From NCBI GenBank assembly GCA_949527715.1, contig CATEWF010000001.1, positions 9,883 to 73,882 on the forward strand: a stretch of DNA of 64,000 nt, read 5' to 3'. The translations under genes were made by a program, and so were the position numbers. The notes beneath the pieces are model-generated. The model was not told the origin of the DNA and ran no database searches. It saw only the letters and a program-made list of their open reading frames with translations. The DNA comes from an uncultured Mycoplasmatota bacterium. GTDB lineage: Bacteria; Bacillota_I; Bacilli_A; Mycoplasmatales; Mycoplasmoidaceae. Position 1 is the first letter of the stretch, and each line of letters opens with the position of its first letter. Positions 20,026 to 56,062 of this stretch are shown here, in pieces.

Positions 20026-20442
20026 ATGTTTAAAAATCCTAAGTTTATTAAAATATCTGAATTATACAATAAGATTATTAATGATTTTAATCTTGATGAT
20101 GTATATATTACAGATTTTTATCATCCGAGATGCGTTGAACGTGTTTTGTCGATACCTGTTAAAATTGAAGTTGAAACTTATGAAAGTAATGACGATGAAA
20201 TAATTTTTACTTGGGTTGAATCAGACCATTTTTATGGTACTTCTACGTTTCTTGCTGAATATAATAATGTTGATGATGCAATTTTAGATAGTATTATTGA
20301 TTCTTTGAATAACGCATATAACAATTATAAATTGATTAATAATGAAGTAAGTAATTTACTTAAAAATGTTGGTAAAAAGGAATACACTTCTAAAATTGTA
20401 ATGAATGTTCTAAACAAAAGATTTAGAGATGAAACCATCTAA
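20026..20442 (+). CDS. hypothetical protein (138 aa)
   Basis: ATG ORF, coding strand. Confidence 0.65.
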   Translation: MFKNPKFIKISELYNKIINDFNLDDVYITDFYHPRCVERVLSIPVKIEVETYESNDDEIIFTWVESDHFYGTSTFLAEYNNVDDAILDSIIDSLNNAYNNYKLINNEVSNLLKNVGKKEYTSKIVMNVLNKRFRDETI

Positions 20443-21133
20443 AAATAAAGTGCATTGCTATGATTGTGGCAGAAATAAAATGCTATTTGAAAGCGAGAAA
20501 AAGGCTTTGAATTTTATCAAGTTCAATAGTGAAAACATTGAAGAAGAAAATGGTATAAAGCCAATTAGAGCGTATTTCTGTCAATCTTGTTGTGGATGGC
20601 ATATAACAAGTAAACCTGAAAAAACATATAAGAATACACCAACTGAAAGGGTGATAGAACTTTATAATAAAGAAAAGGAGGCTAAAAAGAATGAAGCATT
20701 AAAAAAGAAAATGAATATATCTGAACGTATTGAAAAAGGTAAATTCACATATATAGGATTATTTCTTAATGAAGAACAAAGGGAACAATTAAAAGAAACA
20801 TTTTTTCATTTAATTCCACTTGAATCTAAATTATATCTTGACCATTGTACTATCTTACATAAAAATCAGATAGAAAACCCTAAAAGTCAAGAAATAATAG
20901 ATTATGTTTTGTCTTCTTTTTCCAAAGAGGAAGAAGTAAAGATTACTCATATAGGTATGAGTTATAAAACAATGGCTTTTAAGGTAGAAATTAATGTGCC
21001 TTGTGCAAATGATACACCACATATTACAATCTGCACTATTAATGATGGCAGACCTGTTGATAGTAATTATATTACTAATTGGAATAAATTAAGCAAACCA
21101 ATTAATTTGAAATTGGTATGGAAATTAATGTAA
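20429..21133 (+). CDS. zinc-ribbon / 2H-phosphoesterase (LigT/CPDase-like) fusion protein (234 aa)
   Basis: N-terminal CYDCG..(n)..CQSCCGWH ribbon; C-terminal half carries two H-x-T motifs (DHCTILH and PHITICT), the hallmark of 2H phosphoesterases. Confidence 0.5.
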   Translation: MKPSKNKVHCYDCGRNKMLFESEKKALNFIKFNSENIEEENGIKPIRAYFCQSCCGWHITSKPEKTYKNTPTERVIELYNKEKEAKKNEALKKKMNISERIEKGKFTYIGLFLNEEQREQLKETFFHLIPLESKLYLDHCTILHKNQIENPKSQEIIDYVLSSFSKEEEVKITHIGMSYKTMAFKVEINVPCANDTPHITICTINDGRPVDSNYITNWNKLSKPINLKLVWKLM

Positions 21134-21639: not shown

Positions 21640-21671
21640 TTTGGTAGTCATAGAAAAAATGACTACCTTTG
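21640..21671 (+). promoter_or_regulatory. Bacteroidota-type promoter with embedded 9-bp hairpin
   Basis: TTAAC upstream, TTTG 21640-21643, TAccTTTG 21664-21671, 20-nt spacer; GGTAGTCAT/ATGACTACC stem in the spacer. Confidence 0.65.
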
Positions 21672-24167: not shown

Positions 24168-25049
24168 ATGGCAGAATTTAAAGATAAATTATTGGAAAAG
24201 TATAAAGATAAACCATTTTCCGTTGGTGATGATGTTAAAATAAGCCGTAGTTTGTTTACTAACAGCAATAATGATATAGAAAAACTTGTCAATGTTAAAA
24301 TTGTAGATGTTTTAGACAATAACAAATACAAAGTACAACAAGTTAATAAGTATGAAACTTATGGCTTTTCAGATGTTGTTATTGTTGATAAAGATGATTT
24401 GCATAAAGACTTTTATACTATCGGTCATAACCCATTTAAATTTAATAGATATTTGAGAAAACTTGAGAGAGTTCAATTTGACCTTTCTGGAATTTTGTTA
24501 GATTTGAATATTTCTTCAAAAGTAGATCCTTATAAGAAACACGAATATGTAATTAAGGGTTTTACAATTCCTGAATATAATGACAATCCTTACATTTATG
24601 ATGAGAATGGTAATAAAGTTTATTATCAGCGAGATTATGTGTGGTCAGTAGAGGATGAACAACTTTTTATTGAAAGCATTTATAATGGACTTGATTGTGG
24701 TAAAATCGTTATTCGCAAGCACGATTGGAGTTATCTTGAAAAGTGTGTAGTTAATGGTAATACCGAAGGTTTGGCTTTCAAAGATATTGTTGATGGTAAA
24801 CAACGTATTCACACACTTAAAAGATTTTTGAATGACGAATTTAAGGACTTGCACGGATGCTATTATTCAGATTTATCAAAACAGGCAATGCACCAGTTTG
24901 ATAATAGTACAAGTTTAACATATCTTCGTCTTACAGAAGATGCCACAGATAAAGATGTCATTGAAACATTTCTTATGGTTAATTTTAGTGGTAAACCTAT
25001 GTCAAAAGAACATCTTGACTATGTACAGAAAATTAAGGTTAAAGGTTAA
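24168..25049 (+). CDS. DUF262 (ParB-like superfamily) domain protein (293 aa)
   Basis: C-terminal half has YQRDYVWSVEDEQLFIESI..(n)..IVDGKQRIHTL, the QR.yvW / DGqQR signature of DUF262. Confidence 0.55.
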   Translation: MAEFKDKLLEKYKDKPFSVGDDVKISRSLFTNSNNDIEKLVNVKIVDVLDNNKYKVQQVNKYETYGFSDVVIVDKDDLHKDFYTIGHNPFKFNRYLRKLERVQFDLSGILLDLNISSKVDPYKKHEYVIKGFTIPEYNDNPYIYDENGNKVYYQRDYVWSVEDEQLFIESIYNGLDCGKIVIRKHDWSYLEKCVVNGNTEGLAFKDIVDGKQRIHTLKRFLNDEFKDLHGCYYSDLSKQAMHQFDNSTSLTYLRLTEDATDKDVIETFLMVNFSGKPMSKEHLDYVQKIKVKG

Positions 25050-28076: not shown

Positions 28077-28997
28077 ATGAATTTATTTGAAAGTTATTTA
28101 AAAAGACTTGTTAATGAAACGGTTAAAGAATTTTTAAGTGAGAAACGTTTAATTACATTTGATAACAGAGTATATCCTAAATTTGGATGGTGTGTTATCT
28201 TAGCAGGCGGTGGTGGAAGTGGAAAAGGTTATATAAATTCACATAATTTACCGATTGATGGTAAAGTCATTAATGTGGATGACTTCAAAAAATTATATGC
28301 AAGATTAAAAAAGGTAGAATATAATTCGCACAATCCAGAAGATGTCGCTCGTTTACATAAAATGGTATCACAAGCAGATATAAAAGGTATGTATACTGAT
28401 AACATATTTAATCCTGAGGCACATAATACTGAAAGATTACCTAATGTTATCTTTGATATGACAGGTAGAGACCCAGAGCATAATGTTACATATATTGCCA
28501 GATATGCAAAAGAAATGGGTTATAAGACTTGTGTAGTATGGGCTGTTGCTAACAGACATGAAGCATTATTAAGAAATCTAAGAAGAAGTCGAACAGTTCC
28601 TGATAATATCATTCACTCTATACATAATAATCTTGCAACTAATATGCCACCATTTTTAGAAAGTCAGTTAGCAGTCGATTATTTAGATGATGCGTGGATT
28701 ATATTCAGTTCAACTGATAATCTTACTCAATCAGATTTAAGTGGTGATGAAGCAAAAGATATGGCAGTTCATTTAGATAAAAGTAACAATGGATTTATCA
28801 TTTCAAATGATACTTTTGCACGAATAAATAAGTATGTTGGTAAACTTGAGAAAAATCCTTTACACCCAGAAACTTATTTAAGCAGTAAAGAAATTGCTGA
28901 TAAATATGGTACACCACAATTTGATAAAAACGGTAATCAAAATGGCTATGAATTTGATAGAAGCCAATTCAATAAAGATAGTAATTTTTATCGTTAA
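28077..28997 (+). CDS. P-loop kinase, zeta-toxin/AAA_33-like (306 aa)
   Basis: Walker A VILAGGGGSGKGY and Walker-B-like VIFDMTGRD; the family includes small-molecule and polynucleotide kinases. Confidence 0.5.
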   Translation: MNLFESYLKRLVNETVKEFLSEKRLITFDNRVYPKFGWCVILAGGGGSGKGYINSHNLPIDGKVINVDDFKKLYARLKKVEYNSHNPEDVARLHKMVSQADIKGMYTDNIFNPEAHNTERLPNVIFDMTGRDPEHNVTYIARYAKEMGYKTCVVWAVANRHEALLRNLRRSRTVPDNIIHSIHNNLATNMPPFLESQLAVDYLDDAWIIFSSTDNLTQSDLSGDEAKDMAVHLDKSNNGFIISNDTFARINKYVGKLEKNPLHPETYLSSKEIADKYGTPQFDKNGNQNGYEFDRSQFNKDSNFYR

Positions 28998-30162: not shown

Positions 30163-30194
30163 TTTGTGAGGTACGATAAAAAATCGTACCTTTG
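30163..30194 (+). promoter_or_regulatory. Bacteroidota-type promoter with embedded hairpin (Sir2 operon)
   Basis: TTTG 30163-30166, TAccTTTG 30187-30194, 20-nt spacer; AGGTACGAT/ATCGTACCT stem in the spacer. Confidence 0.65.
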
Positions 30195-30223
30195 TTATAT
30201 ATAAACATTAAACTTTAAAAGAT

Positions 30224-30934
30224 ATGAGTAATAAAAAGAAAATAGTCGTATTAACAGGTGCTGGTATATCAAAAGAATCTGGTATTCCAACATTTCGTGA
30301 TGCTGTTGATGGATTGTGGGAAAATTATGATATAAATGATGTTTGTACGGCTGAAGCGATAAAACGAAATCCAGAATTGGTTCATAATTTTTATAATGAA
30401 CTAAGAGCGAAGTATAAAGATGCTAAACCAAATGAAGCACATAAATTGCTTTATGAATTGGAAAAAGATTATGATGTTGAAATTATTACACAGAATGTGG
30501 ATAATTTACATGAACAAGCAGGCTCTACCAAAGTTCTTCACTTACATGGCGAGATAATGAAATGTCGTGATACTGGTAATACTAATTACATTTTTGATAT
30601 ACCTTGTGATGAAGAAGGTAATTACAATACATATCATGGTATGAAAATAGATGGACATACTGTACGTCCTCATATTGTATTTTTTCACGAAGATGTACCA
30701 AATATAACAAAGGCTGCTTCTTTGATGAAAAAAGCTGATATTTGTGTAGTAATAGGTAGTTCAATGCAAGTTTATCCTGCTGCTGGTTTAATTGACTATG
30801 TTAATGTTGGTAATCCAATATATTATATTGACCCATTTCCATCAATTGACCAAGTATCATATCCTGATGTTCAAGTAATTGATGAAGTAGCAACGAAAGG
30901 AATGGAAATATTAACTGAAAAATTAAAGAAATAA
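30224..30934 (+). CDS. cobB: NAD-dependent protein deacylase, Sir2/CobB family (236 aa)
   Basis: Canonical sirtuin motifs GAGISKESGIPTFRD, QNVDNLHEQAG and catalytic His in HLHGE; only two Cys where the usual four-Cys zinc module sits. Confidence 0.85.
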   Translation: MSNKKKIVVLTGAGISKESGIPTFRDAVDGLWENYDINDVCTAEAIKRNPELVHNFYNELRAKYKDAKPNEAHKLLYELEKDYDVEIITQNVDNLHEQAGSTKVLHLHGEIMKCRDTGNTNYIFDIPCDEEGNYNTYHGMKIDGHTVRPHIVFFHEDVPNITKAASLMKKADICVVIGSSMQVYPAAGLIDYVNVGNPIYYIDPFPSIDQVSYPDVQVIDEVATKGMEILTEKLKK

Positions 30935-30946
30935 CAAGATAAAAGA

Positions 30947-31267
30947 ATGAAGAATTGGTCATATTATAAAAAAGGTTGGTCTATATCGTGGTATAATTTT
31001 AAAAACGAATTAGATGATTCATATGCTAAAACATTTAATGAAGCCTATAAAAATAACCCAGATAAATATTTTAAGAAAGTATTTCATTTATTGAGAAATG
31101 AATATGGCATAGAGTATGTCCACATGTGGAATACTTCTCATTTATTGTGGCAAACACCAAAAAATATATATTGGTTTAAGTTTAGAGTTTCTGACAGATT
31201 TGATAAGAAAGGAAAATGGAAGTTTAAAGTTATGAAAACCACTAATGACCATGTAAGTTGTGGTTAA
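30947..31267 (+). CDS. hypothetical protein (106 aa)
   Basis: ATG ORF between the Sir2 and GmrSD-like genes. Confidence 0.6.
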   Translation: MKNWSYYKKGWSISWYNFKNELDDSYAKTFNEAYKNNPDKYFKKVFHLLRNEYGIEYVHMWNTSHLLWQTPKNIYWFKFRVSDRFDKKGKWKFKVMKTTNDHVSCG

Positions 31268-31302
31268 AATATAATATAACATTTTAAATAAAAAGAATAT
31301 AA

Positions 31303-33021
31303 ATGAAAGACAGTAGAACATTTCACGAAATTTTTGGTATTTATGTAGAAAAACCGTATCAATTGGGTGTATTACGGGCTAAACAAAGAAATTATGAATG
31401 GCGCAGAATTGAGATATTGCAATTATTAAATGATATTTCAGAATTAGCAGAAACACATGATCCTCTTGGATATTTTGTAAATACGGTTGCAATTTTTGAA
31501 AATGTAAAAGAAAATGTTGAAGAAATAATTGATGGTAATCAAAGATTGACAACAACATTATTAATATATCTTACAATAAAAAATTTTATATTAAATAATA
31601 ATTTGGGAAAACAGTATGAGTTTATTCTTAATGATATAGATAGAAGAATTTATCGGCACTATGATAAACGTGTAATTTTAAAACCAATGCCTGTTGATAA
31701 GCCTATTTTTGAGGATGTATTGAATAATTGTCATGAAAAGATTCACAGCAACAATTATGAATATAAGACAACAAGAATTGCTAAAGCCTATAAGTTCATT
31801 TATGAATATTTTACAAATTGTTGTATTGAAAAGGGTTATAATTATATAAATTCATTTTATATGGGTGGGCTTTATAATCTTCGTACCTTGATATTAGAAC
31901 CTCAGAGTGAGAAGGAAGCCGCTAATTTGTTTCAGAAATCTAATACTTGTGGTTTAGAACTGAATAACAATACAAAAATTACAGTTTTTGTAAATCAGAT
32001 TCTTGCGGACTATGTTGATGATAATGATTTACCATTAGAAAAGTATGTAGAGTATAATACAAAATTTGCTAACGCTGTGGATAGTGTAAAAGATTTTAAA
32101 AAATCTTTTGTCTATTTTTTATATTATTTAAATAACACTTATGTTACATATACAAGAATTTATGATTCATTTTATAATTATTTGAATAATGTCCTTGTTT
32201 ATGGTAAACAAAAATCAGATAAATTTAGTAATATATTCGAATTAATTGATAAATTCTGTTATTTTACCAACTTCATTTATTCGTTACAAAACAATTATTT
32301 TGAAAATGAAACTAAAAAGATAAACTATTTGTTAAGTTTGTGTGGTACTTGTGTCTATACTGAAATCGCTATAATAGATATGTTTAGTGATAAATATGAT
32401 TATGCCTTTAGTAACACAGAAAAATATAATATTATTGAAATGTTAATGATAATAACATTTCGTAGTAAATATCTCGTTAGTGGATTAAGTCATCCAGAGA
32501 AAAGAATGGCTTGCTTGATTAACAAATGTTTGGAAATTAACAGTAAAACTAATGAAAGAATAGATAAAATTTTTAAAGAATATATTATAAATAGTGGTCT
32601 TTTAGAAGAAATGGGATATGTTTCTGATGAAACTTTTGTAAGAGGTATTATTTATAAACCAATCTATAATAAACGTATTACTTCAGTTTTAAAATATGTT
32701 TTAACTAAATTAAATAATTATTTTGGTGATGAACAAATTATTTTTGGAACCAATATAGATAATACTATTGAACATGTAATTCCACAAATAAATAATCAAA
32801 ATGAAAAATTGTTACATACAATAGGTAATTTGACTGTTTTATCAAGAAGTAATAATTCTTCATTAAAAAATGAAACATATGTAAATAAAAAATCAACATT
32901 AAATAAAAGTTCAATTCATTTAAACCAGTACTTTATAGATAAAGACGATTTTAATTGGACTGATGTTGAAGAACGTAGCAAATATTTAGCACCAATAATG
33001 TGTGAAATTTTTAAAATATAA
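31303..33021 (+). CDS. GmrSD-like DUF262/DUF1524 protein, candidate type IV (modification-dependent) endonuclease (572 aa)
   Basis: N-terminal DUF262 signature (..YEWRR.., IIDGNQRLTT); C-terminal DUF1524 His-Me signature (IEHVIPQ..(n)..IGNLTVLSRSNNSSLKN). Confidence 0.75.
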   Translation: MKDSRTFHEIFGIYVEKPYQLGVLRAKQRNYEWRRIEILQLLNDISELAETHDPLGYFVNTVAIFENVKENVEEIIDGNQRLTTTLLIYLTIKNFILNNNLGKQYEFILNDIDRRIYRHYDKRVILKPMPVDKPIFEDVLNNCHEKIHSNNYEYKTTRIAKAYKFIYEYFTNCCIEKGYNYINSFYMGGLYNLRTLILEPQSEKEAANLFQKSNTCGLELNNNTKITVFVNQILADYVDDNDLPLEKYVEYNTKFANAVDSVKDFKKSFVYFLYYLNNTYVTYTRIYDSFYNYLNNVLVYGKQKSDKFSNIFELIDKFCYFTNFIYSLQNNYFENETKKINYLLSLCGTCVYTEIAIIDMFSDKYDYAFSNTEKYNIIEMLMIITFRSKYLVSGLSHPEKRMACLINKCLEINSKTNERIDKIFKEYIINSGLLEEMGYVSDETFVRGIIYKPIYNKRITSVLKYVLTKLNNYFGDEQIIFGTNIDNTIEHVIPQINNQNEKLLHTIGNLTVLSRSNNSSLKNETYVNKKSTLNKSSIHLNQYFIDKDDFNWTDVEERSKYLAPIMCEIFKI

Positions 33022-33034
33022 TATAGGTTTGTTT

Positions 33035-33652
33035 ATGAAAATAGGATTATATTTTGGTAGTTTTAACCCGATACACGAAGGACATATCTTTGTGGTAAAG
33101 AAAGCATTGGAAACAGGAATAGATAAGTTATTCCTTGTTGTTTCACCCCAATCTCCATTCAAACCATTATCTGAACTTGCTTCTTTTAAGGACAGATTGG
33201 AAATGGCAAAAATTGCTATAAAATCACATAATATTGAAGATAAAGTTGAAGCCGTAGATTGGGAAGAATATATGTATCCATCATATACGGCACATACATT
33301 ACAGAAGTCTGTACCAATGTTACAAGAAAATGATACAACCATTTTTATGGGGTTAGATAATTTCCTTACAATAGATAAATGGAAAGAACCTAATTACATT
33401 CTTGAAAATTATGGAATACATATTATTCCAAGAGGTGATGATTTTGAAGAACGATTAATTACCGATAAGATAAAACAATTGAGGGAAAATGTTACTCCTA
33501 ACCTTAAAAGTGTTACATTTTCTATAATTGAACATACAATTAACATTTCTGCAACAGAGATTAGAAATAGAGTCAGAAATAATGAAAAAATTGAAAATAT
33601 TATAGACTGTAATGTATTAAACTACATCATTAATAATGATTTATATAAATAA
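33035..33652 (+). CDS. nadD: nicotinate/nicotinamide mononucleotide adenylyltransferase, NadD family (205 aa)
   Basis: GSFNPIHEGH (HxGH), PSYTAHTL and ISATEIR motifs; ATG at 33035 preferred over the GTG at 33002. Confidence 0.85.
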   Translation: MKIGLYFGSFNPIHEGHIFVVKKALETGIDKLFLVVSPQSPFKPLSELASFKDRLEMAKIAIKSHNIEDKVEAVDWEEYMYPSYTAHTLQKSVPMLQENDTTIFMGLDNFLTIDKWKEPNYILENYGIHIIPRGDDFEERLITDKIKQLRENVTPNLKSVTFSIIEHTINISATEIRNRVRNNEKIENIIDCNVLNYIINNDLYK

Positions 33653-33671
33653 GAATTTTTAACATAAAAAA

Positions 33672-33703
33672 TTTGTTTTATTGGAATAAAAGTGTTACCT
33701 TTG
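33672..33703 (+). promoter_or_regulatory. Bacteroidota-type promoter
   Basis: TTTAAC upstream, TTTG 33672-33675, TAccTTTG 33696-33703, 20-nt spacer. Confidence 0.7.
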
Positions 33704-36954: not shown

Positions 36955-37779
36955 ATGAAATTCGATAGTTTAAAAGAAAAATGTGAGTATTATCGTGGTC
37001 TTAACGATTCAAGGCTTGTACCAAATTCATATGTGATGGTAATGCTTGATGGCAGGTCGTTTTCAAAAAACATTAAAAATCATTTTAAGAAACCTTTTGA
37101 TGAAGATTTTATTGAAATGATGAATGAAACGGCTAAATATGTTTGTGCAAATGTACAAGGTTGTAAGATGGCATATACACAAAGTGATGAAATTAGTCTA
37201 ATTATTACTGATTTTGAAGATATTAATACAGATTCATTCTTTGGTTTACGTAATAATAAACTACATTCAATCATTGCTTCCCTTGCTACTTCAAAATTTA
37301 ATCAACTTATGATAGAGTATGCCTTTGAAAATGCAGCAATTGTTAAAGCAGAATTTAATCTTAAAAATATTAAGAATATAATTAATGCAACTAAACTTTA
37401 TCAGTTTGATTGTAAATGTTGGAATGTACCTTCTTGGAATGATACATTTGCTTGGTTGCTATATCGTCAAATTGATTGTATTCGTAATTCAAAACAGCAA
37501 GCAGCACAGTCTTATTTATCACATAAAGAATTAGTAGGTAATGAATGTGATAAACAAATTGAAATGCTTAAAGATGCACATGGTATTGATTGGTATACAG
37601 AATATAATGATGGTATGAAATACGGACGTTTTATTTATCGTGATAAGGAACATTTTGTATCTGATAAATATGGCGAATACGAAAGAACTGTATGGAATAG
37701 TCATTATGCATTTCCTTTAATGGAAGACGGTGGGAAAGAGCGTTTTAATGAACTTAATTTAATACCAAAGTTGTCATGA
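36955..37779 (+). CDS. Thg1-like protein (tRNA-His guanylyltransferase family 3'-5' nucleotidyl polymerase, 274 aa)
   Basis: VMVMLDGRSFSK..FKKPFDEDF..(n)..AYTQSDEISLI matches the conserved Thg1/TLP catalytic core (R.DG..F...f.kP.D ... qSDEiS). Confidence 0.8.
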   Translation: MKFDSLKEKCEYYRGLNDSRLVPNSYVMVMLDGRSFSKNIKNHFKKPFDEDFIEMMNETAKYVCANVQGCKMAYTQSDEISLIITDFEDINTDSFFGLRNNKLHSIIASLATSKFNQLMIEYAFENAAIVKAEFNLKNIKNIINATKLYQFDCKCWNVPSWNDTFAWLLYRQIDCIRNSKQQAAQSYLSHKELVGNECDKQIEMLKDAHGIDWYTEYNDGMKYGRFIYRDKEHFVSDKYGEYERTVWNSHYAFPLMEDGGKERFNELNLIPKLS

Positions 37780-37979: not shown

Positions 37980-38657
37980 ATGAAAAGATACGATTCAATA
38001 GATAATGTAAGATATGACAAAACCCTTATGGGTGAAGAAGTTTGGGCTTTTAACAAACTTGATGGACAAAATTTTGGTGTTAAGTATTCACCTAAAAATA
38101 AAGAGTTTACAGATTTTACATCAAGAAATTGTAATGTCGATGAAACACATTCTCAATTTGGTGATGCTGTAAAGTATTTTAAAGAACATTATGCTGATAG
38201 ACTGAAAGAAATTATTAATAGTAATTCTGGTAAAAATCAAATTTTCAAGGGAGTTGAAGAAATAATGTTTTTCTTTGAGTGGTATGGTGAAAACTCATTT
38301 GCTGGTTTTCACACCGAAGGTGATGAACTTAAACTTGCTTTGATTGATGTCTTTATGAAAAAGAAGGGTTATATAGAGCCAAAAGAATTTTATGAATTAT
38401 TTTGTAATGATCCAATAATTCTAACTCCAGAAGTAATTTATAAAGGCAAATTAACACAAGAGTTTATTAATTCTATTAATGAAAATGATTGGACACAGGA
38501 TGGCTGTCAATACCCTAATGTAAAAGAAGGTGTAGTTATTAGACGTTCTACTAGAATGAAAGGTCAAAGAATGCCTAAAACGAAAACAAAGACTAAATGG
38601 TGGATAAATAAATTACACGAGAACTTTACTGAGGAAGAATGTAAGAAATTGGAGTAA
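37980..38657 (+). CDS. ATP-dependent RNA ligase-like nucleotidyltransferase (225 aa)
   Basis: Motif I NKLDGQN, motif IIIa-like FFFEWYGENSFAG, motif IV EGVVIRR, Lys-rich motif V KTKTKTK. Confidence 0.7.
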   Translation: MKRYDSIDNVRYDKTLMGEEVWAFNKLDGQNFGVKYSPKNKEFTDFTSRNCNVDETHSQFGDAVKYFKEHYADRLKEIINSNSGKNQIFKGVEEIMFFFEWYGENSFAGFHTEGDELKLALIDVFMKKKGYIEPKEFYELFCNDPIILTPEVIYKGKLTQEFINSINENDWTQDGCQYPNVKEGVVIRRSTRMKGQRMPKTKTKTKWWINKLHENFTEEECKKLE

Positions 38658-38961: not shown

Positions 38962-39388
38962 TTTTTTTATTATGGAATATATTGTAGAAAAAGAGTTTCT
39001 ATCTAAATTAGGTAGAATGAATGGAAAAGTACGAGAAGAAATTGTTAAAAAATTTCCTGAAATATACAATGATGAGGCTAAATTTTGCTATATTGGTCAA
39101 ATAATTTATTCAAAGAAAAAAGAATCCTTTTATACTATTGTAAAAGTAAAAAATGAAATAAAGTTTCTTAATATTACTAATAGTAGTTTTTGGAAGAATA
39201 CTATAAAGTTAGATTACGATAAATATCCGACATATACTCCTGGTAGTGATGATGATAAGATTATAACTAAAGGTATGTTCCGTGATTTGTTAGGAGAATT
39301 TTCTTATAGATTTGAAGAATTTATACCAATTAGAAATAATGATATGCTTCGTTTAAGAAATAGCCTTATGACTGATAAAAATTGTTAA
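38954..39388 (+). CDS. hypothetical protein (144 aa; alternative ATG at 38972)
   Basis: ATG ORF overlapping the previous stop. Confidence 0.6.
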   Translation: MYNFFIMEYIVEKEFLSKLGRMNGKVREEIVKKFPEIYNDEAKFCYIGQIIYSKKKESFYTIVKVKNEIKFLNITNSSFWKNTIKLDYDKYPTYTPGSDDDKIITKGMFRDLLGEFSYRFEEFIPIRNNDMLRLRNSLMTDKNC

Positions 39389-39393
39389 GAATA

Positions 39394-41052
39394 ATGAGTC
39401 GAATTAGTATTACAGATAGCAAAGGATTTCGTTATACAGTTGATGATACGAAATCTATTGGTAGTGGTGGAGAAGCCTGCATTTATTCGTTAAATAATGG
39501 TAATGTAGTTAAACTTTATCATAACATTTCAGATGCAATTTCTCCTAAGAAAATAAATGAATTAACTGTACTTGATGACACTTTATTTGTAAAACCATTA
39601 ATGCCAGTACATGGTGATAAGAATGGCTATATAATGAAAGAATTAGATTTAAGCAAATATTACCCTATCTATTCGTTATATAGTTCATCATTTGTACTTA
39701 AAAATGGTTTTCCACGAGATTATAAGAAAGTTATATCTGAAAAGTTAGTTAAAGCGGTTAAAAATGCCCACGACAATAATATTGTTATTGGAGATTTAAA
39801 TCCATTCAATATTATGGTGAATAATCAATTGGATGTTAAGTTTATTGATGTTGATTCATATCAGACAATATCATATAAACATAATGATAAATTATTAGAA
39901 GATATACGTGATTATTACTATAATGGAAAGGTATCAAAGGAAAGTGATTATTTTTCGTTATCAATCATAGTATTTTGTTTATTCACTGGTATTCATCCAT
40001 ATAAAGGAATACATAATGTATATAGGGATAAACTAAAAGATAGGGAAATAAATAACATATCACTTCTTAATGAAAAAGAAATCAATAATATAAAAGTACC
40101 TAAATTTTATGTCCCGATTGATAATTCATTAAAGGATATGTTCTATCAATTGTATCAATTGAATAAACGTTTCCTTATCAATATGGAAGGAAAAACAATC
40201 GCTGATGTTAAGTTCGATGCCATTGTTGCTTCAAATGAATTGCTCATTCGCAGTCTATTTAAAGGTAATATTTTAAATGTATGCTGTTCTAACAAGTTTA
40301 TGGCAATATTCAATGATAAAGATACTCAACTTTATTCATTGGAAAGCAAAGGTATAATTGTAAGAATTGGAAATATTGACAAAAAATATCCTTTAATATT
40401 AACAGATAAGAATATATTCACAATATATAATAATCATTTATATCTATGTAATGTTAAAGAACAAAAATTTACTGCATTTAAATCATTAATGTTCAATAAT
40501 GTTTATCTAATAAAACAATATGAAAATATATTGGTAGTGATTACAAAAGATGATAAACGTTATACAATTTATCTTGATGAGATATTTGCCAATAACATAA
40601 GATATACAGTAGATGATGTTTATCATAAGACGTTTACCAAAGTGAACGGTTTGATACAACGGATAAATAACAGTTCTACAAATATATTTTATAATTCAAA
40701 TGGTAAGTTGATGCAGAATATGATACCTGAAAAGGTAGTAGATATTATACAAAATCGTAATACTGGTATTTATACTGTTATTGAGAATAATAATGTAATT
40801 CATAAACTATTCTATATTAATCAGTATGGAAACATGAAGACTAAATCATTGACTGAAATGTACCCATTTACATCTAATGATAAGTTTGTAATTCTATATT
40901 GTGATGATAAATTACATTTCCTTGATAAAGAAACCTTAAATGAAGTAGTATCTTTTGAAGCCAATGGATTGGATAATTGTCAAATAATGTCAACACAATC
41001 TGGCATTGTAACATTTAATAATAGTGAATGTCAGATTTTAAATACTAAATAA
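39394..41052 (+). CDS. eukaryotic-type Ser/Thr protein kinase with large C-terminal repeat-like domain (552 aa)
   Basis: Gly-loop GSGGEACIY, Lys in VVKLY, catalytic loop IVIGDLNPFNIMV, DFG-like FIDVDSY, ESDYFSLSI; ATG at 39394 preferred over the TTG at 39382. Confidence 0.7.
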   Translation: MSRISITDSKGFRYTVDDTKSIGSGGEACIYSLNNGNVVKLYHNISDAISPKKINELTVLDDTLFVKPLMPVHGDKNGYIMKELDLSKYYPIYSLYSSSFVLKNGFPRDYKKVISEKLVKAVKNAHDNNIVIGDLNPFNIMVNNQLDVKFIDVDSYQTISYKHNDKLLEDIRDYYYNGKVSKESDYFSLSIIVFCLFTGIHPYKGIHNVYRDKLKDREINNISLLNEKEINNIKVPKFYVPIDNSLKDMFYQLYQLNKRFLINMEGKTIADVKFDAIVASNELLIRSLFKGNILNVCCSNKFMAIFNDKDTQLYSLESKGIIVRIGNIDKKYPLILTDKNIFTIYNNHLYLCNVKEQKFTAFKSLMFNNVYLIKQYENILVVITKDDKRYTIYLDEIFANNIRYTVDDVYHKTFTKVNGLIQRINNSSTNIFYNSNGKLMQNMIPEKVVDIIQNRNTGIYTVIENNNVIHKLFYINQYGNMKTKSLTEMYPFTSNDKFVILYCDDKLHFLDKETLNEVVSFEANGLDNCQIMSTQSGIVTFNNSECQILNTK

Positions 41053-42808: not shown

Positions 42809-42840
42809 TTTGGTTATGTAGAAAATTTTCCATACCTTTG
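42809..42840 (+). promoter_or_regulatory. Bacteroidota-type promoter
   Basis: TTTAAC upstream, TTTG 42809-42812, TAccTTTG 42833-42840, 20-nt spacer. Confidence 0.7.
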
Positions 42841-42895: not shown

Positions 42896-43678
42896 ATGAC
42901 AAACGCAATGTTGATTGTAGACATGCAGAATGATTTTGTCTGCACAAATGGCACACTTTCAGTTCCAGGTGCCGAAGAAGATGCAAAAAGAACAGCTGAT
43001 TTTATTAAAAAAAATGCTCGAAACATTTATCATATTTCAGCAACTCTTGATAGTCATCACCCTATTCATATAGCAAATGCTATTTTTTGGAAAGATGCAA
43101 ATGGTAATCATCCTTCACCATTTACTACCATTACTGCACAGGATATTAAGGATGGAAAATGGCAAACAGCATTTAATCCTCAGTGGGCTGTACATTATGT
43201 TGAGGAACTTGAGAAAAAAGGGAAAATTCTTACTATATGGACTGATCATTGCATTATTGGAAGTGAAGGATGGGCTTTGTATAAAGATATTGCTAATGCA
43301 TTGATCGATTGGGAAAAGGAAACTTCACGTCCTTATCATCTTGAGTTTAAGGGAAGCAATTGGTATACTGAACATTATAGTATCTTTAAGGGTGAAGTAG
43401 AAGTTCCTAATTGTCCTGAGACACAGTTGAATCAGAATCTTATTAATATTCTTAATAAATTTGACCGAATATTTCTTTTGGGTGAAGCATCCTCAGTATG
43501 TGTAAAAAATTCACTTAACGACCTTAACAACTATGCTCCTGACCTTGTAAGCAAGTTGGTTATTCTCGAAGACTGTATGTCACCTATCGGTCCTTGGGAT
43601 ATTAATACTGATGCCGTTTATCAGAAAGCAGTATCTTTGGGTGCAAAGATTATGAAATCAACAGATGTTACATTTTAA
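42896..43678 (+). CDS. pncA: isochorismatase-family cysteine hydrolase, probable nicotinamidase (260 aa)
   Basis: MLIVDMQNDF (catalytic Asp), His cluster LDSHHPIH, and nucleophile Cys in GEASSVCV. Confidence 0.6.
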   Translation: MTNAMLIVDMQNDFVCTNGTLSVPGAEEDAKRTADFIKKNARNIYHISATLDSHHPIHIANAIFWKDANGNHPSPFTTITAQDIKDGKWQTAFNPQWAVHYVEELEKKGKILTIWTDHCIIGSEGWALYKDIANALIDWEKETSRPYHLEFKGSNWYTEHYSIFKGEVEVPNCPETQLNQNLINILNKFDRIFLLGEASSVCVKNSLNDLNNYAPDLVSKLVILEDCMSPIGPWDINTDAVYQKAVSLGAKIMKSTDVTF

Positions 43679-43684
43679 CTTAAA

Positions 43685-43948
43685 ATGAGTGCTAAATGTA
43701 TAAATAAAAATACTTGTATATTATTAATACATTTTCCAGTTTCTTTATTGCCAGTAGAACAAATGGTAGATTTTACAGAAGATTTACATCGTTATTGTGA
43801 TGATACTGTATTTCCATTTGTAATCGCTGACAATGTTGAGAAAGTTGAAATCGAATTTATTAATAATGAAACTCTTTCAGAAAAAGAAAGAGAAAAGTTA
43901 AATACAACAATAGAGAATTTATTAACAAAAAATAAAAATAAAGAGTAA
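43685..43948 (+). CDS. hypothetical protein (87 aa)
   Basis: ATG ORF; stop overlaps the next start (TAATG). Confidence 0.55.
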   Translation: MSAKCINKNTCILLIHFPVSLLPVEQMVDFTEDLHRYCDDTVFPFVIADNVEKVEIEFINNETLSEKEREKLNTTIENLLTKNKNKE

Positions 43949-44637
43949 TGGACGAATTTAATTTTATGTCAAGTATGGGATTGAATTTTACTAACTTTAA
44001 TCCCGAAAATATTCAGGTATCGGAAACAATTAATGTAACTTTTGTAATTGATAAGTCTGGTTCAGTTAATAATTATGTTGATGACCTTAACAATATTCTG
44101 AACGAGTTTTTGCACGAACTTCAAAGGTCACATGTTGCTGACCGCGTAATGGTTTCGGTAGTTGAATTTAATGAGAACATTGATGTTGTTTCAGCCTTCC
44201 ACCCTATTGCAGATGTTAAGGATTTTGAGATTAAGCCTGGTGGTATGACCAATCTTTATGGTGCAACGCTTTCTGCTCTTGAAAATGCAATTGCCTATAA
44301 GGAAGAACAGGAGAATAATGGTTTGACTTCTAAATCTCTTGTATTCATTATTACTGACGGTATGGATAATATGAATGCAACTAATGCTTCTAATATCGCA
44401 CAGAAACTGCGTGAGATTTATTCAAACGAAATGAATAGTTTCTCTTTCTCAGTTATTATGTTCGGTCTTGGTAATGAAGCAGATTTTGATAGTGCCCGTA
44501 ATGCAATGGGTATCAAACCTGAAATGCTTGCTAAGTTGGGTACTACTGCAAAGGAACTTCGTAAGATGGTTGGCTTTATTTCTTCTTCAGTTTCTTCAAG
44601 TGCCGCTGGTAATAGTATCAGTGCAGTCACTTTCTAA
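43948..44637 (+). CDS. von Willebrand factor A (vWA) domain protein, TerY-like (229 aa)
   Basis: MIDAS motif VIDKSGS, then T in GGMTNLY and D in IITDGMDN. Confidence 0.7.
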   Translation: MDEFNFMSSMGLNFTNFNPENIQVSETINVTFVIDKSGSVNNYVDDLNNILNEFLHELQRSHVADRVMVSVVEFNENIDVVSAFHPIADVKDFEIKPGGMTNLYGATLSALENAIAYKEEQENNGLTSKSLVFIITDGMDNMNATNASNIAQKLREIYSNEMNSFSFSVIMFGLGNEADFDSARNAMGIKPEMLAKLGTTAKELRKMVGFISSSVSSSAAGNSISAVTF

Positions 44638-44667
44638 GAAATGACAATATATTTTCTTAGTTTTCAT

Positions 44668-44700
44668 AAATCTACTCATTGTTTAATGGGTAGATTTTTG
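44668..44700 (+). terminator. intrinsic terminator
   Basis: AAATCTAC (44668-44675) pairs with GTAGATTT (44690-44697), running into a T-run. Confidence 0.6.
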
Positions 44701-44741
44701 CTATTTATAACTACTTATAAATATAGAATTTTTTAATAGAA

Positions 44742-47444: not shown

Positions 47445-47929
47445 TAAATAAATATGTTTTTATGTTTAAAGAACTTATACAATTAATCAAGTGGCTTTTT
47501 AGTGGTAATCCAAATGATTACGAAGGACTTGAGTTAGTCCAAATGAAATATTTCCCATTTAAAAATTATTCTGCAATGTCTTGGTGTGGTAGAATAATTA
47601 CTCGTGAACCAGATAAGATAGACGATGTAACAATCAATCATGAAACTATACACCTTAAACAAGCACAATGTTATGGAACTTGGTTTTCATATTATCTTCG
47701 TTATTGTATCGAATGGTTAAAGGGAAATCCATTTACTAAGCCATTTAGGTCTGCTTATTATACAATACCTTATGAGGTTGAAGCATATGCTAACGAGAAT
47801 GATTTTAATTATGCATTTGTATATAATCCCGATTTAATTAGATTAAAATATAATTTAAAAAATCGAAAGAAATTATTTAAGAGTTTCAAAACCCTTAGAG
47901 AGTGGAAACAATATATTAAAACTTTATAA
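47441..47929 (+). CDS. putative HExxH zinc metallopeptidase-like protein (162 aa)
   Basis: INHETIHLKQ (HExxH) and downstream YEVEAY; ATGA overlap with the 900-aa ORF. Confidence 0.5.
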   Translation: MINKYVFMFKELIQLIKWLFSGNPNDYEGLELVQMKYFPFKNYSAMSWCGRIITREPDKIDDVTINHETIHLKQAQCYGTWFSYYLRYCIEWLKGNPFTKPFRSAYYTIPYEVEAYANENDFNYAFVYNPDLIRLKYNLKNRKKLFKSFKTLREWKQYIKTL

Positions 47930-56052: not shown

Positions 56053-56062
56053 TTATATAATT

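What the first reader, a model, noticed from the sequence alone, without database searches (positions are those of the whole stretch)
30163..33652. One operon encodes Sir2, a hypothetical protein, a GmrSD-like nuclease and NadD; a nicotinamidase lies 9 kb downstream
One promoter (30163-30194) precedes four genes with no canonical promoter cassette between them. They are a canonical class-III-type sirtuin (GAGIS.ESGIPTFRD, QNVDNLH, HLHG), a 106-aa unknown, a DUF262/DUF1524 GmrSD-like endonuclease, and a NadD-type NaMN/NMN adenylyltransferase. A probable nicotinamidase (42896..43678) has its own promoter. Sirtuins consume NAD+ and are inhibited by their product, nicotinamide. Nicotinamidase removes nicotinamide and NadD rebuilds the dinucleotide. 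The phage therefore carries three steps of an NAD+ consumption and salvage loop; the phosphoribosyltransferase step is not in this window. One interpretation is a phage-run sirtuin activity (deacylation or ADP-ribosylation of host or phage targets) with its own cofactor supply. Another is a counter-measure to NAD+-depleting immunity, as in the phage NAD+ reconstitution pathways reported recently, but with different enzymes. A third is an inter-phage warfare cassette centred on the type IV nuclease. I do not know of a described system with this gene combination.
Basis: partly seen in the sequence, partly recalled or inferred. Interest (0 to 1): 0.7.

Follow-up and report, generated by a model that had tools for sequence, protein, structure and literature searches.

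The report
Phage NAD+ genes with swappable nuclease
A large gut phage of Bacteroidota transcribes a sirtuin (which consumes NAD+) together with an NAD+-building enzyme, while the restriction nuclease between them is mobile cargo; this NAD+ gene set in gut jumbo phages was already described in 2024, so it is a good example, not a new kind of system.

Summary
Sir2, a 106-aa orphan, GmrSD and NadD lie behind one Bacteroidota-type promoter with no internal promoter of that class, and a bona fide nicotinamidase with its own promoter lies 9 kb downstream.

The four genes are not one system. GmrSD is a discrete insert flanked by a 15-nt direct repeat. In close relatives it is absent, or relocated and only 26% identical, or the neighbouring slot holds a type I-Fv CRISPR-Cas module.

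The real theme is NAD+ economy. NadD and PncA form a partial Preiss-Handler route; no NAPRT, NadE or NAMPT was found in about 73 kb examined. Relatives carry PncA-NAPRT-Tad2-NadD, or a full PncA-PncB-NadE-NadD cluster beside Sir2. Of 80 unrelated Sir2-bearing viral loci, 19 have NAD+-synthesis genes within 10 kb.

Preiss-Handler genes in gut Bacteroidota "NAD-jumbo phages" were published in 2024 (PMC11662467), and NARP1-3 establish NAD+ rebuilding as counter-defence. What Sir2 acts on is open: acyl-lysines, or RNA 2'-phosphates, since a fungal-type tRNA repair kit without Tpt1 lies nearby.

Verdict: a new member of a known kind, of moderate interest.

The parts
30163..30194 (+). Bacteroidota-type promoter (-33 TTTG, 20-nt spacer, -7 TACCTTTG). 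The spacer forms a 10-bp hairpin at 30168-30192.
   Evidence: The motif is enriched, 35 sites against 7.4 expected. This site scores 31 bits on the weight matrix. Hairpin. The site is conserved upstream of Sir2 in L007 and L009.
30224..30934 (+). CobB-like sirtuin (Sir2), an NAD+-consuming enzyme of a phage-borne clade
   Evidence: Pfam SIR2 4.5e-42. PHROG 2162 8.7e-48. E. coli CobB 7e-39 with the catalytic His conserved. The NAD-binding and catalytic motifs are invariant across the clade. It scores below the NCBIfam CobB cut-offs.
30947..31267 (+). Orphan 106-aa protein (p106), always directly downstream of Sir2 in this lineage; function unknown
   Evidence: No family match. Seven homologues among 5.8 billion proteins. 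Eighteen representatives among 1.84 billion clusters. AlphaFold2 pLDDT 43. It also occurs without Sir2 in L008.
31264..31278 (+). Left copy of the 15-nt direct repeat TTAAAATATAATATA that brackets the GmrSD cassette
   Evidence: There are only two exact copies in the 64-kb window, one at each border of GmrSD. The empty site is seen in L022.
31303..33021 (+). GmrSD-type (DUF262 + DUF1524) type IV restriction nuclease; inserted, swappable defence cargo
   Evidence: Pfam GmrSD_N and GmrSD_C. PADLOC HEC-06 5e-34. Absent from L007. Relocated and only 26% identical in L009. The neighbouring slot holds a Cas3fv-Cas7fv-Cas6 module in L022 and L024.
33011..33025 (+). Right copy of the 15-nt direct repeat
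33035..33652 (+). NadD-type nicotinate (nicotinamide) mononucleotide adenylyltransferase
   Evidence: TIGR00482 130 bits, above the cut-off of 112. HxGH and ISATxIR motifs aligned to E. coli NadD 1K4K. It belongs to a phage clade running from 100% down to 45% identity; the nearest cellular homologues (38% or less) are NadD of Bacteroidota.
33672..33703 (+). Next promoter, marking the downstream limit of the transcription unit
42809..42840 (+). Promoter of the nicotinamidase unit (PncA, 87 aa, VWA, 900 aa, 162 aa)
   Evidence: There is no further site of this class on the + strand before the strand switch near 47.9 kb.
42896..43678 (+). Nicotinamidase (PncA/Pnc1-like, with an insertion)
   Evidence: The best solved match is yeast Pnc1 2H0R, 3e-9. 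The motifs VDMQNDF, LDSHHPIH, WTDHC, FKG..YSIF and SSVCVK align to the catalytic and metal-binding residues. Pfam Isochorismatase 30.1 bits against 27. The same protein is found on 11 contigs.
20429..21133 (+). Context: 2H-type tRNA-ligase cyclic phosphodiesterase domain protein
   Evidence: Pfam tRNA_lig_CPD 1.5e-6, 28.3 bits against a cut-off of 23.
28077..28997 (+). Context: P-loop kinase (zeta-toxin-like; faint polynucleotide-kinase relation)
   Evidence: Pfam Zeta_toxin 6.5e-7. PHROG 5268 1.7e-34, and PHROG 505 (polynucleotide kinase) 0.003.
36955..37779 (+). Context: Thg1-like 3'-5' nucleotidyltransferase
   Evidence: Pfam Thg1 2.8e-28. A Thg1-like gene lies within 10 kb of Sir2 in 12 of 80 IMG/VR loci.
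37980..38657 (+). Context: RNA ligase; a second one lies at 14407-15108
   Evidence: Pfam RNA_ligase 5.9e-12 and 8.4e-20.

Best explanation
The locus is a composite, not a four-part machine.

(1) Sir2 and NadD, with the separately transcribed nicotinamidase, are this phage's NAD+ economy genes.
- Sir2 is an NAD+ consumer that releases nicotinamide.
- PncA deamidates nicotinamide to nicotinate. That removes the product inhibitor of sirtuins and ADP-ribosyltransferases, and it is also the breakdown product left by host NADase defences.
- NadD adenylates NaMN to NaAD.
- NAPRT and NadE must come from the host or from unseen parts of the genome.
- The net effect is to keep NAD+ available during infection, both for the phage's own NAD+ users and against NAD+-depleting immunity.

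(2) GmrSD is unrelated cargo: a type IV restriction nuclease that landed in a hotspot between p106 and NadD and acts on its own, probably against competing phages with modified DNA.

(3) p106 is a lineage-restricted orphan of unknown role.

Shown here: the gene identities, the integrity of the active-site motifs, the promoter layout, the variability and repeat-flanking of GmrSD, and the recurrence of Sir2 next to NAD+-synthesis genes.

Inferred: co-transcription, all enzyme activities, the direction of NAD+ flux, the counter-defence benefit and the target of GmrSD.
For: - Domains and motifs.
- One promoter ahead of the block and none of that class inside it. The layout is conserved in L007 and L009.
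- GmrSD as cargo. L007 has flanking genes 98-100% identical, Sir2 94% and NadD 86%, but no GmrSD. L009 has the order Sir2, p106, NadD, GmrSD, with GmrSD only 26% identical. L022 and L024 have Cas3fv-Cas7fv-Cas6 inserted after NadD. A 15-nt direct repeat occurs only at the two GmrSD borders, and L022 shows the empty site.
- NAD+ theme. L029 (NadD 52% identical) carries PncA, NAPRT, a Tad2-like anti-Thoeris gene and NadD. NAPRT lies within 10 kb of NadD in 5 of 14 unrelated NadD loci. L044-L046 carry Metallophos, PncA, NAPRT (437 bits), NadE (131 bits), NadD-like, Nudix and then Sir2. Of 80 IMG/VR Sir2 loci, 19 have an NAD+-synthesis gene within the flanks, of different enzyme types.
- Literature. 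Gut Bacteroidota NAD-jumbo phages with Preiss-Handler clusters are described in PMC11662467. NARP1 and NARP2 (10.1101/2024.02.11.579819) and NARP3 (PMC13464706) show that rebuilding NAD+ counters NADase defences.
- Established knowledge: CobB is inhibited by nicotinamide (title of PMC5734772, seen). That nicotinamidase relieves this inhibition, as in the yeast Pnc1-Sir2 axis, is from my own knowledge.
Against: - No NAPRT, NadE, NAMPT, NadR or PnuC was found in the window or in about 10 kb upstream, so the encoded pathway is incomplete as seen. If the host lacks PncB, nicotinate would be a dead end.
- From the NadD side, none of 14 unrelated NadD loci has Sir2 within 10 kb.
- Many phage sirtuins have no NAD+-synthesis neighbour. 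These include KVP40, a T5-like phage, a V5-like phage, and an abundant crAss-like phage in which Sir2 sits between Metallophos and YqeY.
- Sharing a transcription unit is weak evidence of shared function in a phage.
- The 19-of-80 count is not corrected for relatedness (at least 5 lineages) and has no formal null model.
- No expression, activity or NAD+ data exist.
Confidence: 0.6

Rival explanations
1. The sirtuin is an RNA-repair enzyme, not a protein deacylase. It would use NAD+ to remove the 2'-phosphate left by a fungal or plant (Trl1-type) tRNA healing-and-sealing pathway, acting as a functional analogue of Tpt1/KptA. NadD and PncA would keep that repair supplied with NAD+. This changes the substrate of Sir2; the NAD+ supply logic and the cargo status of GmrSD stay the same.
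For: - The window encodes the rest of such a pathway on the same strand within 16 kb. It has a 2H tRNA-ligase CPD domain (20429-21133), a P-loop kinase (28077-28997), two RNA ligases (14407-15108 and 37980-38657) and a Thg1-like enzyme (36955-37779). No KptA/Tpt1 was found among the scanned ORFs.
- Iyer et al. 2022 (PMC9503650, sections 3.3.2 and 3.7.3) predict this role for the main viral sirtuin clade, from neighbourhoods with tRNA ligase, kinase, 2H, cREC and phosphoesterases.
- The 62%-identical Sir2 in an abundant crAss-like phage overlaps a calcineurin-like phosphoesterase gene and is followed by a YqeY (GatB-like) gene.
- A Thg1-like gene lies within 10 kb of Sir2 in 12 of 80 loci. L028 has RtcB, YqeY and NadD in a row. 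A V5-like phage has a phosphoesterase, a phosphatase, tRNA genes and a ligase near its Sir2.
Against: - I found no report of any sirtuin removing RNA 2'-phosphates, and no experimental test of the prediction in the searchable literature.
- Overall the protein resembles bona fide deacylases: CobB, Sir2Af and SIRT5 are its top solved matches.
- The RNA-repair genes are 2-16 kb away, in other transcription units, not adjacent.
- The kinase's relation to polynucleotide kinase is faint (E 0.003).
Confidence: 0.2
2. The adjacency is incidental. Sir2, p106, GmrSD and NadD are independent accessory genes that sit together only because this region is an accessory-gene hotspot. Sir2 has no functional tie to NadD or PncA.
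For: - The region is demonstrably plastic. GmrSD is present, absent or relocated, CRISPR-Cas is inserted, and small ORFs are swapped. p106 is only 63% identical in L007, where the flanking genes are 98-100% identical.
- None of 14 unrelated NadD loci has Sir2 nearby.
- Several Sir2 phages lack neighbouring NAD+ genes.
Against: - Sir2 and NadD stay together, behind one promoter, in every variant of the lineage.
- Sir2 recurs next to NAD+-synthesis genes of different, non-homologous types in at least 5 lineages: 19 of 80 loci, against a rough chance expectation of a few percent.
Confidence: 0.15
3. The four genes form one integrated system, in which Sir2, p106, GmrSD and NadD act together. An example would be an NAD+-linked restriction or exclusion module with NadD as its antidote or supplier.
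For: - All four share one promoter with no internal site of that class.
- A GmrSD gene was recruited to this neighbourhood twice independently, in the window and in L009.
- Sir2 domains do occur in defence systems.
Against: - Relatives keep Sir2, p106 and NadD without GmrSD. L007/L025 is one case. L022 and L024 are others, although there Sir2 and NadD appear frameshifted, which may be an assembly artefact.
- GmrSD is repeat-flanked and has an empty site in a relative.
- The neighbouring slot is taken by CRISPR-Cas in other relatives.
- This Sir2 is CobB-like and matches no defence-type Sir2 model in PADLOC.
Confidence: 0.04

Closest known systems
'NAD-jumbo phages' of animal and human guts (Li et al., Microbiome 2024, PMC11662467)
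   Same: These are gut phages, with Bacteroidota hosts for the Kuafu clade, that carry Preiss-Handler genes (pncB, nadD, nadE; pncA is mentioned) together with NAD+-consuming enzymes. The authors propose both cofactor supply and counter-defence. Relatives of this window lie on contigs of 219 and 323 kb. L044 reproduces their pncB-nadD-nadE cluster.
   Different: Only NadD and PncA are seen here, so the pathway is incomplete in about 73 kb examined, and nadD is not clustered with pncB or nadE. The paper's main text does not discuss a phage CobB-type sirtuin or its linkage to nadD. Their definition needs a complete pathway and a genome above 200 kb; neither is shown for this 115.6-kb contig.
NAD+ reconstitution pathways: NARP1 (Adps + Namat), NARP2 (Nampt + Nmnat) and NARP3 (PnuC + NadR)
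   Same: These are phage-encoded enzymes that rebuild NAD+ from the debris of NADase defences or from precursors. They are experimentally shown to rescue phages from Thoeris, DSR and Sir2-HerA-type defences.
   Different: The enzymes and the route differ: here it is the deamidated route through nicotinate, NaMN and NaAD. None of the three papers mentions NadD, PncA or NaMN. The route is not self-sufficient as seen, and no functional data exist.
Vibrio phage KVP40 (NadV/NatV salvage plus a Sir2/CobB gene)
   Same: It is a large phage that encodes both a sirtuin and NAD+ salvage enzymes.
   Different: Its salvage is the amidated route (NAMPT plus NMNAT/Nudix). No NAD+ salvage gene is annotated within 8 kb of the KVP40 Sir2. 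In the related T4-like contigs L112 and L121 they are about 6 kb apart.
Viral sirtuin clade predicted to act in RNA repair (Iyer et al., Viruses 2022, PMC9503650)
   Same: It is a phage sirtuin encoded in the same genome region as an RNA ligase, a kinase, a 2H phosphodiesterase and phosphoesterases, with no KptA.
   Different: Here the repair genes are kilobases away in other transcription units, and the immediate partners are NadD and p106. That survey lists only NadV, NadM and NadR as viral NAD+-synthesis enzymes and does not contain the words NadD, PncA or nicotinamidase.
Nicotinamide clearance in sirtuin regulation: the yeast Pnc1-Sir2 axis and nicotinamide inhibition of bacterial CobB
   Same: A nicotinamidase encoded alongside a sirtuin removes the sirtuin's product inhibitor. 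The closest solved relative of the phage enzyme is yeast Pnc1.
   Different: Those are cellular regulatory circuits. Here the two genes are in separate phage transcription units and nothing has been tested.
GmrSD/BrxU-type type IV restriction enzymes, and accessory defence hotspots in phage genomes
   Same: The two-domain DUF262 + DUF1524 architecture is present. A variable slot between conserved flanking genes carries alternative defence cargo: GmrSD or CRISPR-Cas I-Fv.
   Different: It is encoded by a lytic-looking large phage, not by a bacterium or a satellite. Its target modification is unknown, and it has no sequence-level match to any solved structure.

Membership tests
Sirtuin (Sir2/CobB-type NAD+-dependent deacylase) | Rossmann NAD-binding motifs (GAGxS...GIPxFR, QNxDxLH) and the catalytic His (HxHG) | tested here: met
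   Pfam SIR2 4.5e-42 over the full profile. The alignment to E. coli CobB shows HLHG against HMHG. The motifs are invariant in the 10-sequence alignment.
Sirtuin (Sir2/CobB-type NAD+-dependent deacylase) | Equivalog-level match to cellular CobB (NCBIfam cut-offs) | tested here: not met
   The best scores are 189 bits (cut-off 243) and 186 bits (cut-off 320). It is CobB-like but not an equivalog. Its nearest relatives are unnamed phage-borne proteins at 60-100% identity.
Sirtuin (Sir2/CobB-type NAD+-dependent deacylase) | Class III YxxR acyl-carboxylate pocket and a Cys4 zinc ribbon | tested here: not met
   The Arg of YxxR aligns to Leu; the next residue is Arg and is invariant. Only two Cys remain in the ribbon region and they are not conserved: P0204 has none, and an Acinetobacter CobB also lacks them. 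Residue roles are from established knowledge of SIRT5 and CobB.
NadD (NaMN/NMN adenylyltransferase) | Curated family score, plus the HxGH and ISxxxxR motifs | tested here: met
   TIGR00482 130.1 bits, above the cut-off of 112.45. FNPIHEGH and ISATEIR align to E. coli NadD 1K4K and are invariant across the phage clade.
NadD (NaMN/NMN adenylyltransferase) | Preference for NaMN over NMN | not testable with these tools
   This needs kinetics.
Nicotinamidase (PncA/Pnc1) | Asp-Lys-Cys catalytic triad and Asp/His metal site in an isochorismatase fold | tested here: met
   The alignment to yeast Pnc1 2H0R (3e-9) shows D (VDMQNDF), D-x-H (LDSHH), H (WTDHC), K (FKG) and C (SSVCVK). Pfam Isochorismatase scores 30.1 bits against a cut-off of 27.
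Nicotinamidase (PncA/Pnc1) | NCBIfam PncA equivalog cut-off | tested here: not met
   NF008623 scores 43.9 bits against a cut-off of 174. The protein is divergent and carries an insertion of roughly 50 aa.
GmrSD type IV restriction endonuclease | N-terminal DUF262 (DGQQR-type motif) plus C-terminal DUF1524 His-Me finger in one polypeptide | tested here: met
   Both Pfam domains score above their cut-offs. IDGNQR and EHVIP...GNL...N are visible in the translation. PADLOC HEC-06 5e-34. Activity and modification specificity were not tested.
NARP-type NAD+ reconstitution counter-defence | The phage encodes a self-sufficient route from available precursors to NAD+ | tested here: not met
   No NAPRT, NadE, NAMPT or NadM was found in the window or in about 10 kb upstream; NadR and PnuC were covered only by the Pfam/NCBIfam scans, which found none. 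About 42 kb of the source contig, and any further genome, were not examined.
NARP-type NAD+ reconstitution counter-defence | Restores NAD+ and plating in the presence of NADase defence systems | not testable with these tools
   This needs infection experiments. The only indirect hint is a Tad2-like anti-Thoeris gene inside the PncA-NAPRT-NadD cluster of L029.
NAD-jumbo phage (definition of Li et al. 2024) | Genome above 200 kb and at least one complete NAD+ synthesis pathway | tested here: inconclusive
   The source contig is 115.6 kb. Closely related contigs of 218.9 and 322.8 kb carry the same genes. The pathway is incomplete in the part examined.
Phage accessory or defence hotspot | Different cargo genes between the same conserved flanking genes in close relatives | tested here: met
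   Window type: GmrSD. L007/L025: 65-aa and 123-aa ORFs. L009: a different GmrSD after NadD. L022/L024: Cas3fv-Cas7fv-340aa-Cas6 after NadD. A direct repeat sits at the cassette borders.
Sirtuin-centred RNA-repair neighbourhood (Iyer et al. 2022) | The sirtuin gene is linked to genes for tRNA ligase, nucleotide kinase, and 2H, cREC or other phosphoesterases | tested here: inconclusive
   All component types are in the window, but 2-16 kb from Sir2 and in other transcription units. Linkage is tight in the related crAss-like Sir2 lineage, with the order Metallophos, Sir2, YqeY.

The most novel reading that the evidence does not exclude
The phage sirtuin is the missing NAD+-dependent 2'-phosphate remover, a functional analogue of Tpt1/KptA. 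It would complete a fungal-type (CPD + kinase + ligase) tRNA healing-and-sealing pathway encoded in the same genome region. NadD and the nicotinamidase would exist to keep that repair running when host anticodon nucleases and NADase defences strike together. This would be the first sirtuin shown to act on RNA, and it would tie two arms of counter-defence together.
Probability: 0.15. Interest if true: 0.7.

Novelty: new member of a known kind. Interest (0 to 1): 0.35.

Why it matters
- **A tractable example.** Phage sirtuins are very common (1020 deposited phage records match this one), yet I found no experimentally established function for them. NAD+ is now recognised as a central battleground between phages and bacterial immunity. 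This locus is compact and promoter-defined, and it places a sirtuin, a deamidated-route NAD+ enzyme and a nicotinamidase in one Bacteroidota phage.
- **A lead for the open question.** The survey here shows the sirtuin as the constant partner of several non-homologous NAD+-synthesis modules across phage lineages. I did not find this stated in the papers I could read, and it gives a handle on what phage sirtuins do.
- **A natural hotspot.** The same site accepts either a type IV restriction enzyme or a CRISPR-Cas system. This is useful for studying how large phages acquire weapons against competitors.
- **No new principle.** The Preiss-Handler theme was published in 2024 and the counter-defence logic in 2024-2026.

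Tried and rejected
- **Close DNA relatives:** a megablast of 4.9 kb against 50,697 phage records found nothing. Single-protein scans of IMG/VR found no close relatives.
- **Mislabelled record:** the 'Acinetobacter phage MD-2021a' Sir2 hit is a bacterial contig carrying cobB, so I disregarded it.
- **An inference I had to retract:** from the NadD side, none of 14 loci has Sir2 nearby. I first concluded that the Sir2-NadD linkage was confined to one lineage. The Sir2-side survey showed that was too strong, and I withdrew it.
- **False NadD hits:** the short 'NadD' matches in L075, L078 and L083 belong to a CoaD-like transferase. I removed them from the count.
- **p106:** the AlphaFold2 model has pLDDT 43, so no fold search was run. 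The exhaustive profile search found only 18 representatives, and the one fused relative has no known domain.
- **GmrSD structure:** there is no sequence-level match in the PDB.
- **ADP-ribosyltransferase in the 900-aa protein:** only a sub-threshold Pfam ART-PolyVal hit (E 1.2e-3), with no PHROG or PDB support. I treat it as a hint only.
- **Apparent pseudogenes:** Sir2, NadD, PncA, Thg1 and the RNA ligase all appear frameshifted in L022 and L024. I did not read these as pseudogenes, because so many genes are affected that assembly error is likely.
- **Downstream flank:** the look-up with the 371-aa protein failed, so about 37 kb downstream and 5.7 kb upstream of the source contig remain unseen.
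- **Other phages:** neither KVP40 nor a T5-like phage has NAD+ salvage genes next to Sir2.
- **Supplementary tables:** those of PMC11662467 are not held, so I could not check whether this phage, or a phage cobB gene, is listed there.

Full report
**Observation.**
- Sir2 (30224-30934) matches Pfam SIR2 at 4.5e-42 and PHROG 2162 at 8.7e-48. It aligns end to end with E. coli CobB (7e-39) with the catalytic His in place.
- The 106-aa ORF (p106) matches nothing in Pfam, NCBIfam, PHROGs or PADLOC.
- The 572-aa protein has both GmrSD domains above Pfam's cut-offs and matches PADLOC HEC-06 at 5e-34.
- NadD passes the curated TIGR00482 threshold (130 bits against 112) and has the HxGH and ISATxIR motifs. 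Its likely start is ATG 33035, as in public gene calls, not the overlapping GTG 33002.
- The 260-aa protein is a divergent but convincing nicotinamidase. Its best solved match is yeast Pnc1, and the Asp/Lys/Cys triad and metal ligands all align.

**Promoters.** The window has 35 matches against 7.4 expected, almost all intergenic and on the coding strand. A weight matrix built from 25 sites scores genuine sites at 31-54 bits, and the best position inside 30195-33660 scores -2.8. One promoter at 30163-30194 therefore precedes the four genes and the next is at 33672-33703. The same layout holds in two diverged relatives. Co-transcription is inferred, and other promoter classes cannot be excluded. 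PncA has its own site at 42809-42840. No further site of this class follows before the strand switch, so PncA would be co-transcribed with the 87-aa, VWA, 900-aa and 162-aa genes.

**What the genome is.** GC content is 27%. There is no close DNA relative among deposited phages. The window comes from a 115.6-kb metagenome contig, ENA ERZ781220 NODE_69. Contigs carrying identical or near-identical proteins reach 218.9 and 322.8 kb, so this lineage may be a jumbo phage. A Bacteroidota host is suggested by the promoter type and by NadD's nearest cellular homologues, which are from Bacteroidales, Rikenellaceae and Chitinophagaceae at 38% identity or less.

**GmrSD is cargo.** p106 has only seven homologues among 5.8 billion proteins, and their contigs gave the synteny test.
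- L007/L025 has flanking genes 98-100% identical to the window's, Sir2 at 94% and NadD at 86%. It has no GmrSD; instead it has 65-aa and 123-aa ORFs and a p106 that is only 63% identical.
- L009 has the order Sir2, p106, NadD, GmrSD. That GmrSD is a bona fide but different family member, 26% identical.
- L022 and L024 have p106 running directly into NadD, followed by a 5.3-kb insert encoding Cas3fv (1e-34), Cas7fv (3e-17), a 340-aa protein and Cas6 (7e-31).
- In the window, the 15-mer TTAAAATATAATATA occurs exactly twice in 64 kb, at the two borders of GmrSD.

GmrSD is therefore a discrete insert in a hotspot that also accepts CRISPR-Cas. It is not a component of a Sir2/NadD machine.

**NadD's wider company.** NadD belongs to a phage-borne clade running from 100% down to 45% identity. 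In more distant members, Sir2 is not within 10 kb (L027, L028, L029). L029 has PncA, NAPRT, a Tad2-like anti-Thoeris gene and NadD in one cluster. NAPRT accompanies NadD in 5 of 14 unrelated NadD loci, and Sir2 in none. From this I first concluded that the Sir2-NadD pairing was peculiar to one lineage.

**Correction from the Sir2 side.** A scan of IMG/VR with a Sir2 alignment returned 80 loci.
- With strict criteria, 19 have at least one NAD+-synthesis gene within the flanks and 16 have a PRPP synthetase.
- The enzymes differ by lineage. L044-L046 (Sir2 58% identical) have Metallophos, PncA, NAPRT (437 bits), NadE (131 bits), a P-loop protein, NadD-like, Nudix and then Sir2. A large group has NadV upstream, then Sir2, a CoaD-like transferase, Prs and a Thg1-like gene. 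T4-like contigs have NadM and NadV about 6 kb from Sir2.
- A rough chance expectation is a few percent. The count is not corrected for relatedness (at least 5 lineages) and has no formal null.

The sirtuin is thus a recurrent neighbour of NAD+ synthesis, whichever route is used. The association is partial, however. KVP40, a T5-like phage, a V5-like phage and an abundant crAss-like phage (with the order Metallophos, Sir2, YqeY) show no NAD+ genes near Sir2.

**Missing steps.** No NAPRT, NadE, NAMPT, NadM or Tad2 is present in the window or in about 10 kb upstream. NadR and PnuC were covered only by the family scans, which found none. All ORFs of 250 aa or more were checked, directly or through precomputed Pfam records. 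About 42 kb of the source contig, and any genome beyond it, were not seen.

**Literature.**
- Li et al. 2024 (PMC11662467) report 174 gut jumbo phages with complete salvage or Preiss-Handler pathways. These include pncB-nadD-nadE clusters and a Kuafu clade whose predicted hosts are all Bacteroidota. The phages also carry NAD+ consumers, and the authors propose both cofactor supply and counter-defence. Their main text does not discuss a phage CobB-type sirtuin, and their supplements were not available.
- NARP1 and NARP2 (10.1101/2024.02.11.579819) and NARP3 (PMC13464706) establish NAD+ rebuilding as counter-defence, but they use other enzymes and never mention NadD, PncA or NaMN.
- The 2022 survey by Iyer et al. 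(PMC9503650) lists only NadV, NadM and NadR as viral NAD+-synthesis enzymes. It predicts that most viral sirtuins act in RNA repair, like KptA.

**The RNA-repair rival.** The window also encodes a 2H tRNA-ligase-type cyclic phosphodiesterase (20429-21133), a P-loop kinase (28077-28997), two RNA ligases (14407-15108 and 37980-38657) and a Thg1-like enzyme (36955-37779). There is no KptA/Tpt1. From established knowledge of Trl1 and Tpt1, a CPD + kinase + ligase pathway leaves a 2'-phosphate at the junction, and removing it needs NAD+. Thg1-like genes lie near Sir2 in 12 of 80 loci. I found no experimental test of a sirtuin in this role. This rival changes Sir2's substrate but not the NAD+ supply logic.

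**Synthesis.** The best-supported reading (confidence about 0.6) is a composite of three parts.
- An NAD+ economy set: Sir2 as consumer, PncA as nicotinamide remover, and NadD as a flux booster on the deamidated route.
- Independent type IV restriction cargo.
- An orphan small protein.

Sir2's substrate is unresolved. The class III Arg of the YxxR motif is replaced by Leu, and the zinc-ribbon cysteines are not conserved in the clade. Acyl specificity therefore cannot be read from the sequence.

**Novelty and score.** This is a new member of a known kind. The Preiss-Handler theme in gut Bacteroidota jumbo phages and the counter-defence logic are both published. Two things add modest value: the recurrent partnership between sirtuins and NAD+-synthesis modules, and the hotspot that swaps GmrSD for CRISPR-Cas. 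Interest 0.35.

Noticed in passing
window 306-42840, + strand; for example 5043-5074, 10252-10283, 21640-21671 and 30163-30194: The promoter cassettes share an extended consensus, AAAAAtAtTTTGG-N20-TACCTTTGCAtTgTCA. Many have a perfect palindrome bridging the -33 and -7 elements, for example GGTAGTGAAT-loop-ATTCACTACC. In L007 the Sir2 promoter keeps the stem but its loop is reverse-complemented. This could be an operator, or a combined terminator and promoter.
   Followed up: partly
L022 4253-9517 (also L024); L027 1-6725: Close relatives carry type I-Fv-like CRISPR-Cas genes (Cas3fv, Cas7fv, a 340-aa protein and Cas6) with no Cas1 or Cas2 in view. L027 has an array of about 20 repeats (ATTGTATAACATATCTATTTGTTAGATAATTACAAC, period 66). 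L022 has a 3-repeat mini-array at 8661-8811.
   Followed up: partly
window 14407-15108, 20429-21133, 28077-28997, 36955-37779 and 37980-38657: The window holds a near-complete fungal or plant-type tRNA healing-and-sealing kit: two RNA ligases, a 2H cyclic phosphodiesterase, a P-loop kinase and a Thg1-like 3'-5' polymerase. No KptA/Tpt1 was found in the window.
   Followed up: partly
window 42896-47929: The nicotinamidase appears to head a transcription unit with an 87-aa protein, a VWA-domain protein, a 900-aa protein whose N-terminus has a sub-threshold ART-PolyVal (ADP-ribosyltransferase) hit, and a 162-aa protease-like protein. If the ART hit is real, PncA is co-transcribed with a second producer of nicotinamide.
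   Followed up: partly
L029 350-10663: A distant relative clusters PncA, a DUF723 gene, NAPRT, a Tad2-like (anti-Thoeris sponge) gene and NadD. This places a known anti-defence gene inside a Preiss-Handler cluster.
   Followed up: partly
window 50390-51646 (-), 47984-49918 (-) and 16941-17576 (+); relatives L014, L019, L021 and L026, just upstream of PncA: There are many selfish elements: an IS605/TnpB-like transposase, a LAGLIDADG domain inserted in the 644-aa terminase- or exonuclease-like protein, an HNH protein, and a DUF723 gene that is present or absent next to PncA in relatives and also sits between PncA and NAPRT in L029.
   Followed up: no
window 24168-25049 and 39382-41052: A second protein with only a DUF262 domain (GmrSD_N; PADLOC NsnA-like, 7e-9) and a 556-aa Ser/Thr kinase with weak PADLOC PD-T4-6 matches. 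Both may be further conflict genes.
   Followed up: no
L040-L042 (9318-11167): In a very abundant crAss-like phage (the Sir2 protein is seen on more than 224 contigs), the Sir2 gene overlaps a calcineurin-like phosphoesterase gene and is followed by a YqeY (GatB-like) gene. L028 has RtcB, YqeY and NadD in a row. YqeY recurs with both Sir2 and NadD.
   Followed up: partly
L075 9998-15347 (also L083): A conserved block in another phage group runs Sir2, a SET-domain-like 98-aa protein, a CoaD-like 146-aa nucleotidyltransferase, PRPP synthetase and a Thg1-like gene, with NadV about 5 kb upstream.
   Followed up: partly
window 62251-63369 (-) and 55291-56839 (-): An IMPDH/GMP-reductase-like gene and two adjacent DNA methyltransferase genes.
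   Followed up: no
L022 and L024: Sir2, NadD, PncA, Thg1 and the RNA ligase all appear frameshifted in these two assemblies. With so many genes affected, assembly error is more likely than decay, but this is not resolved.
   Followed up: partly
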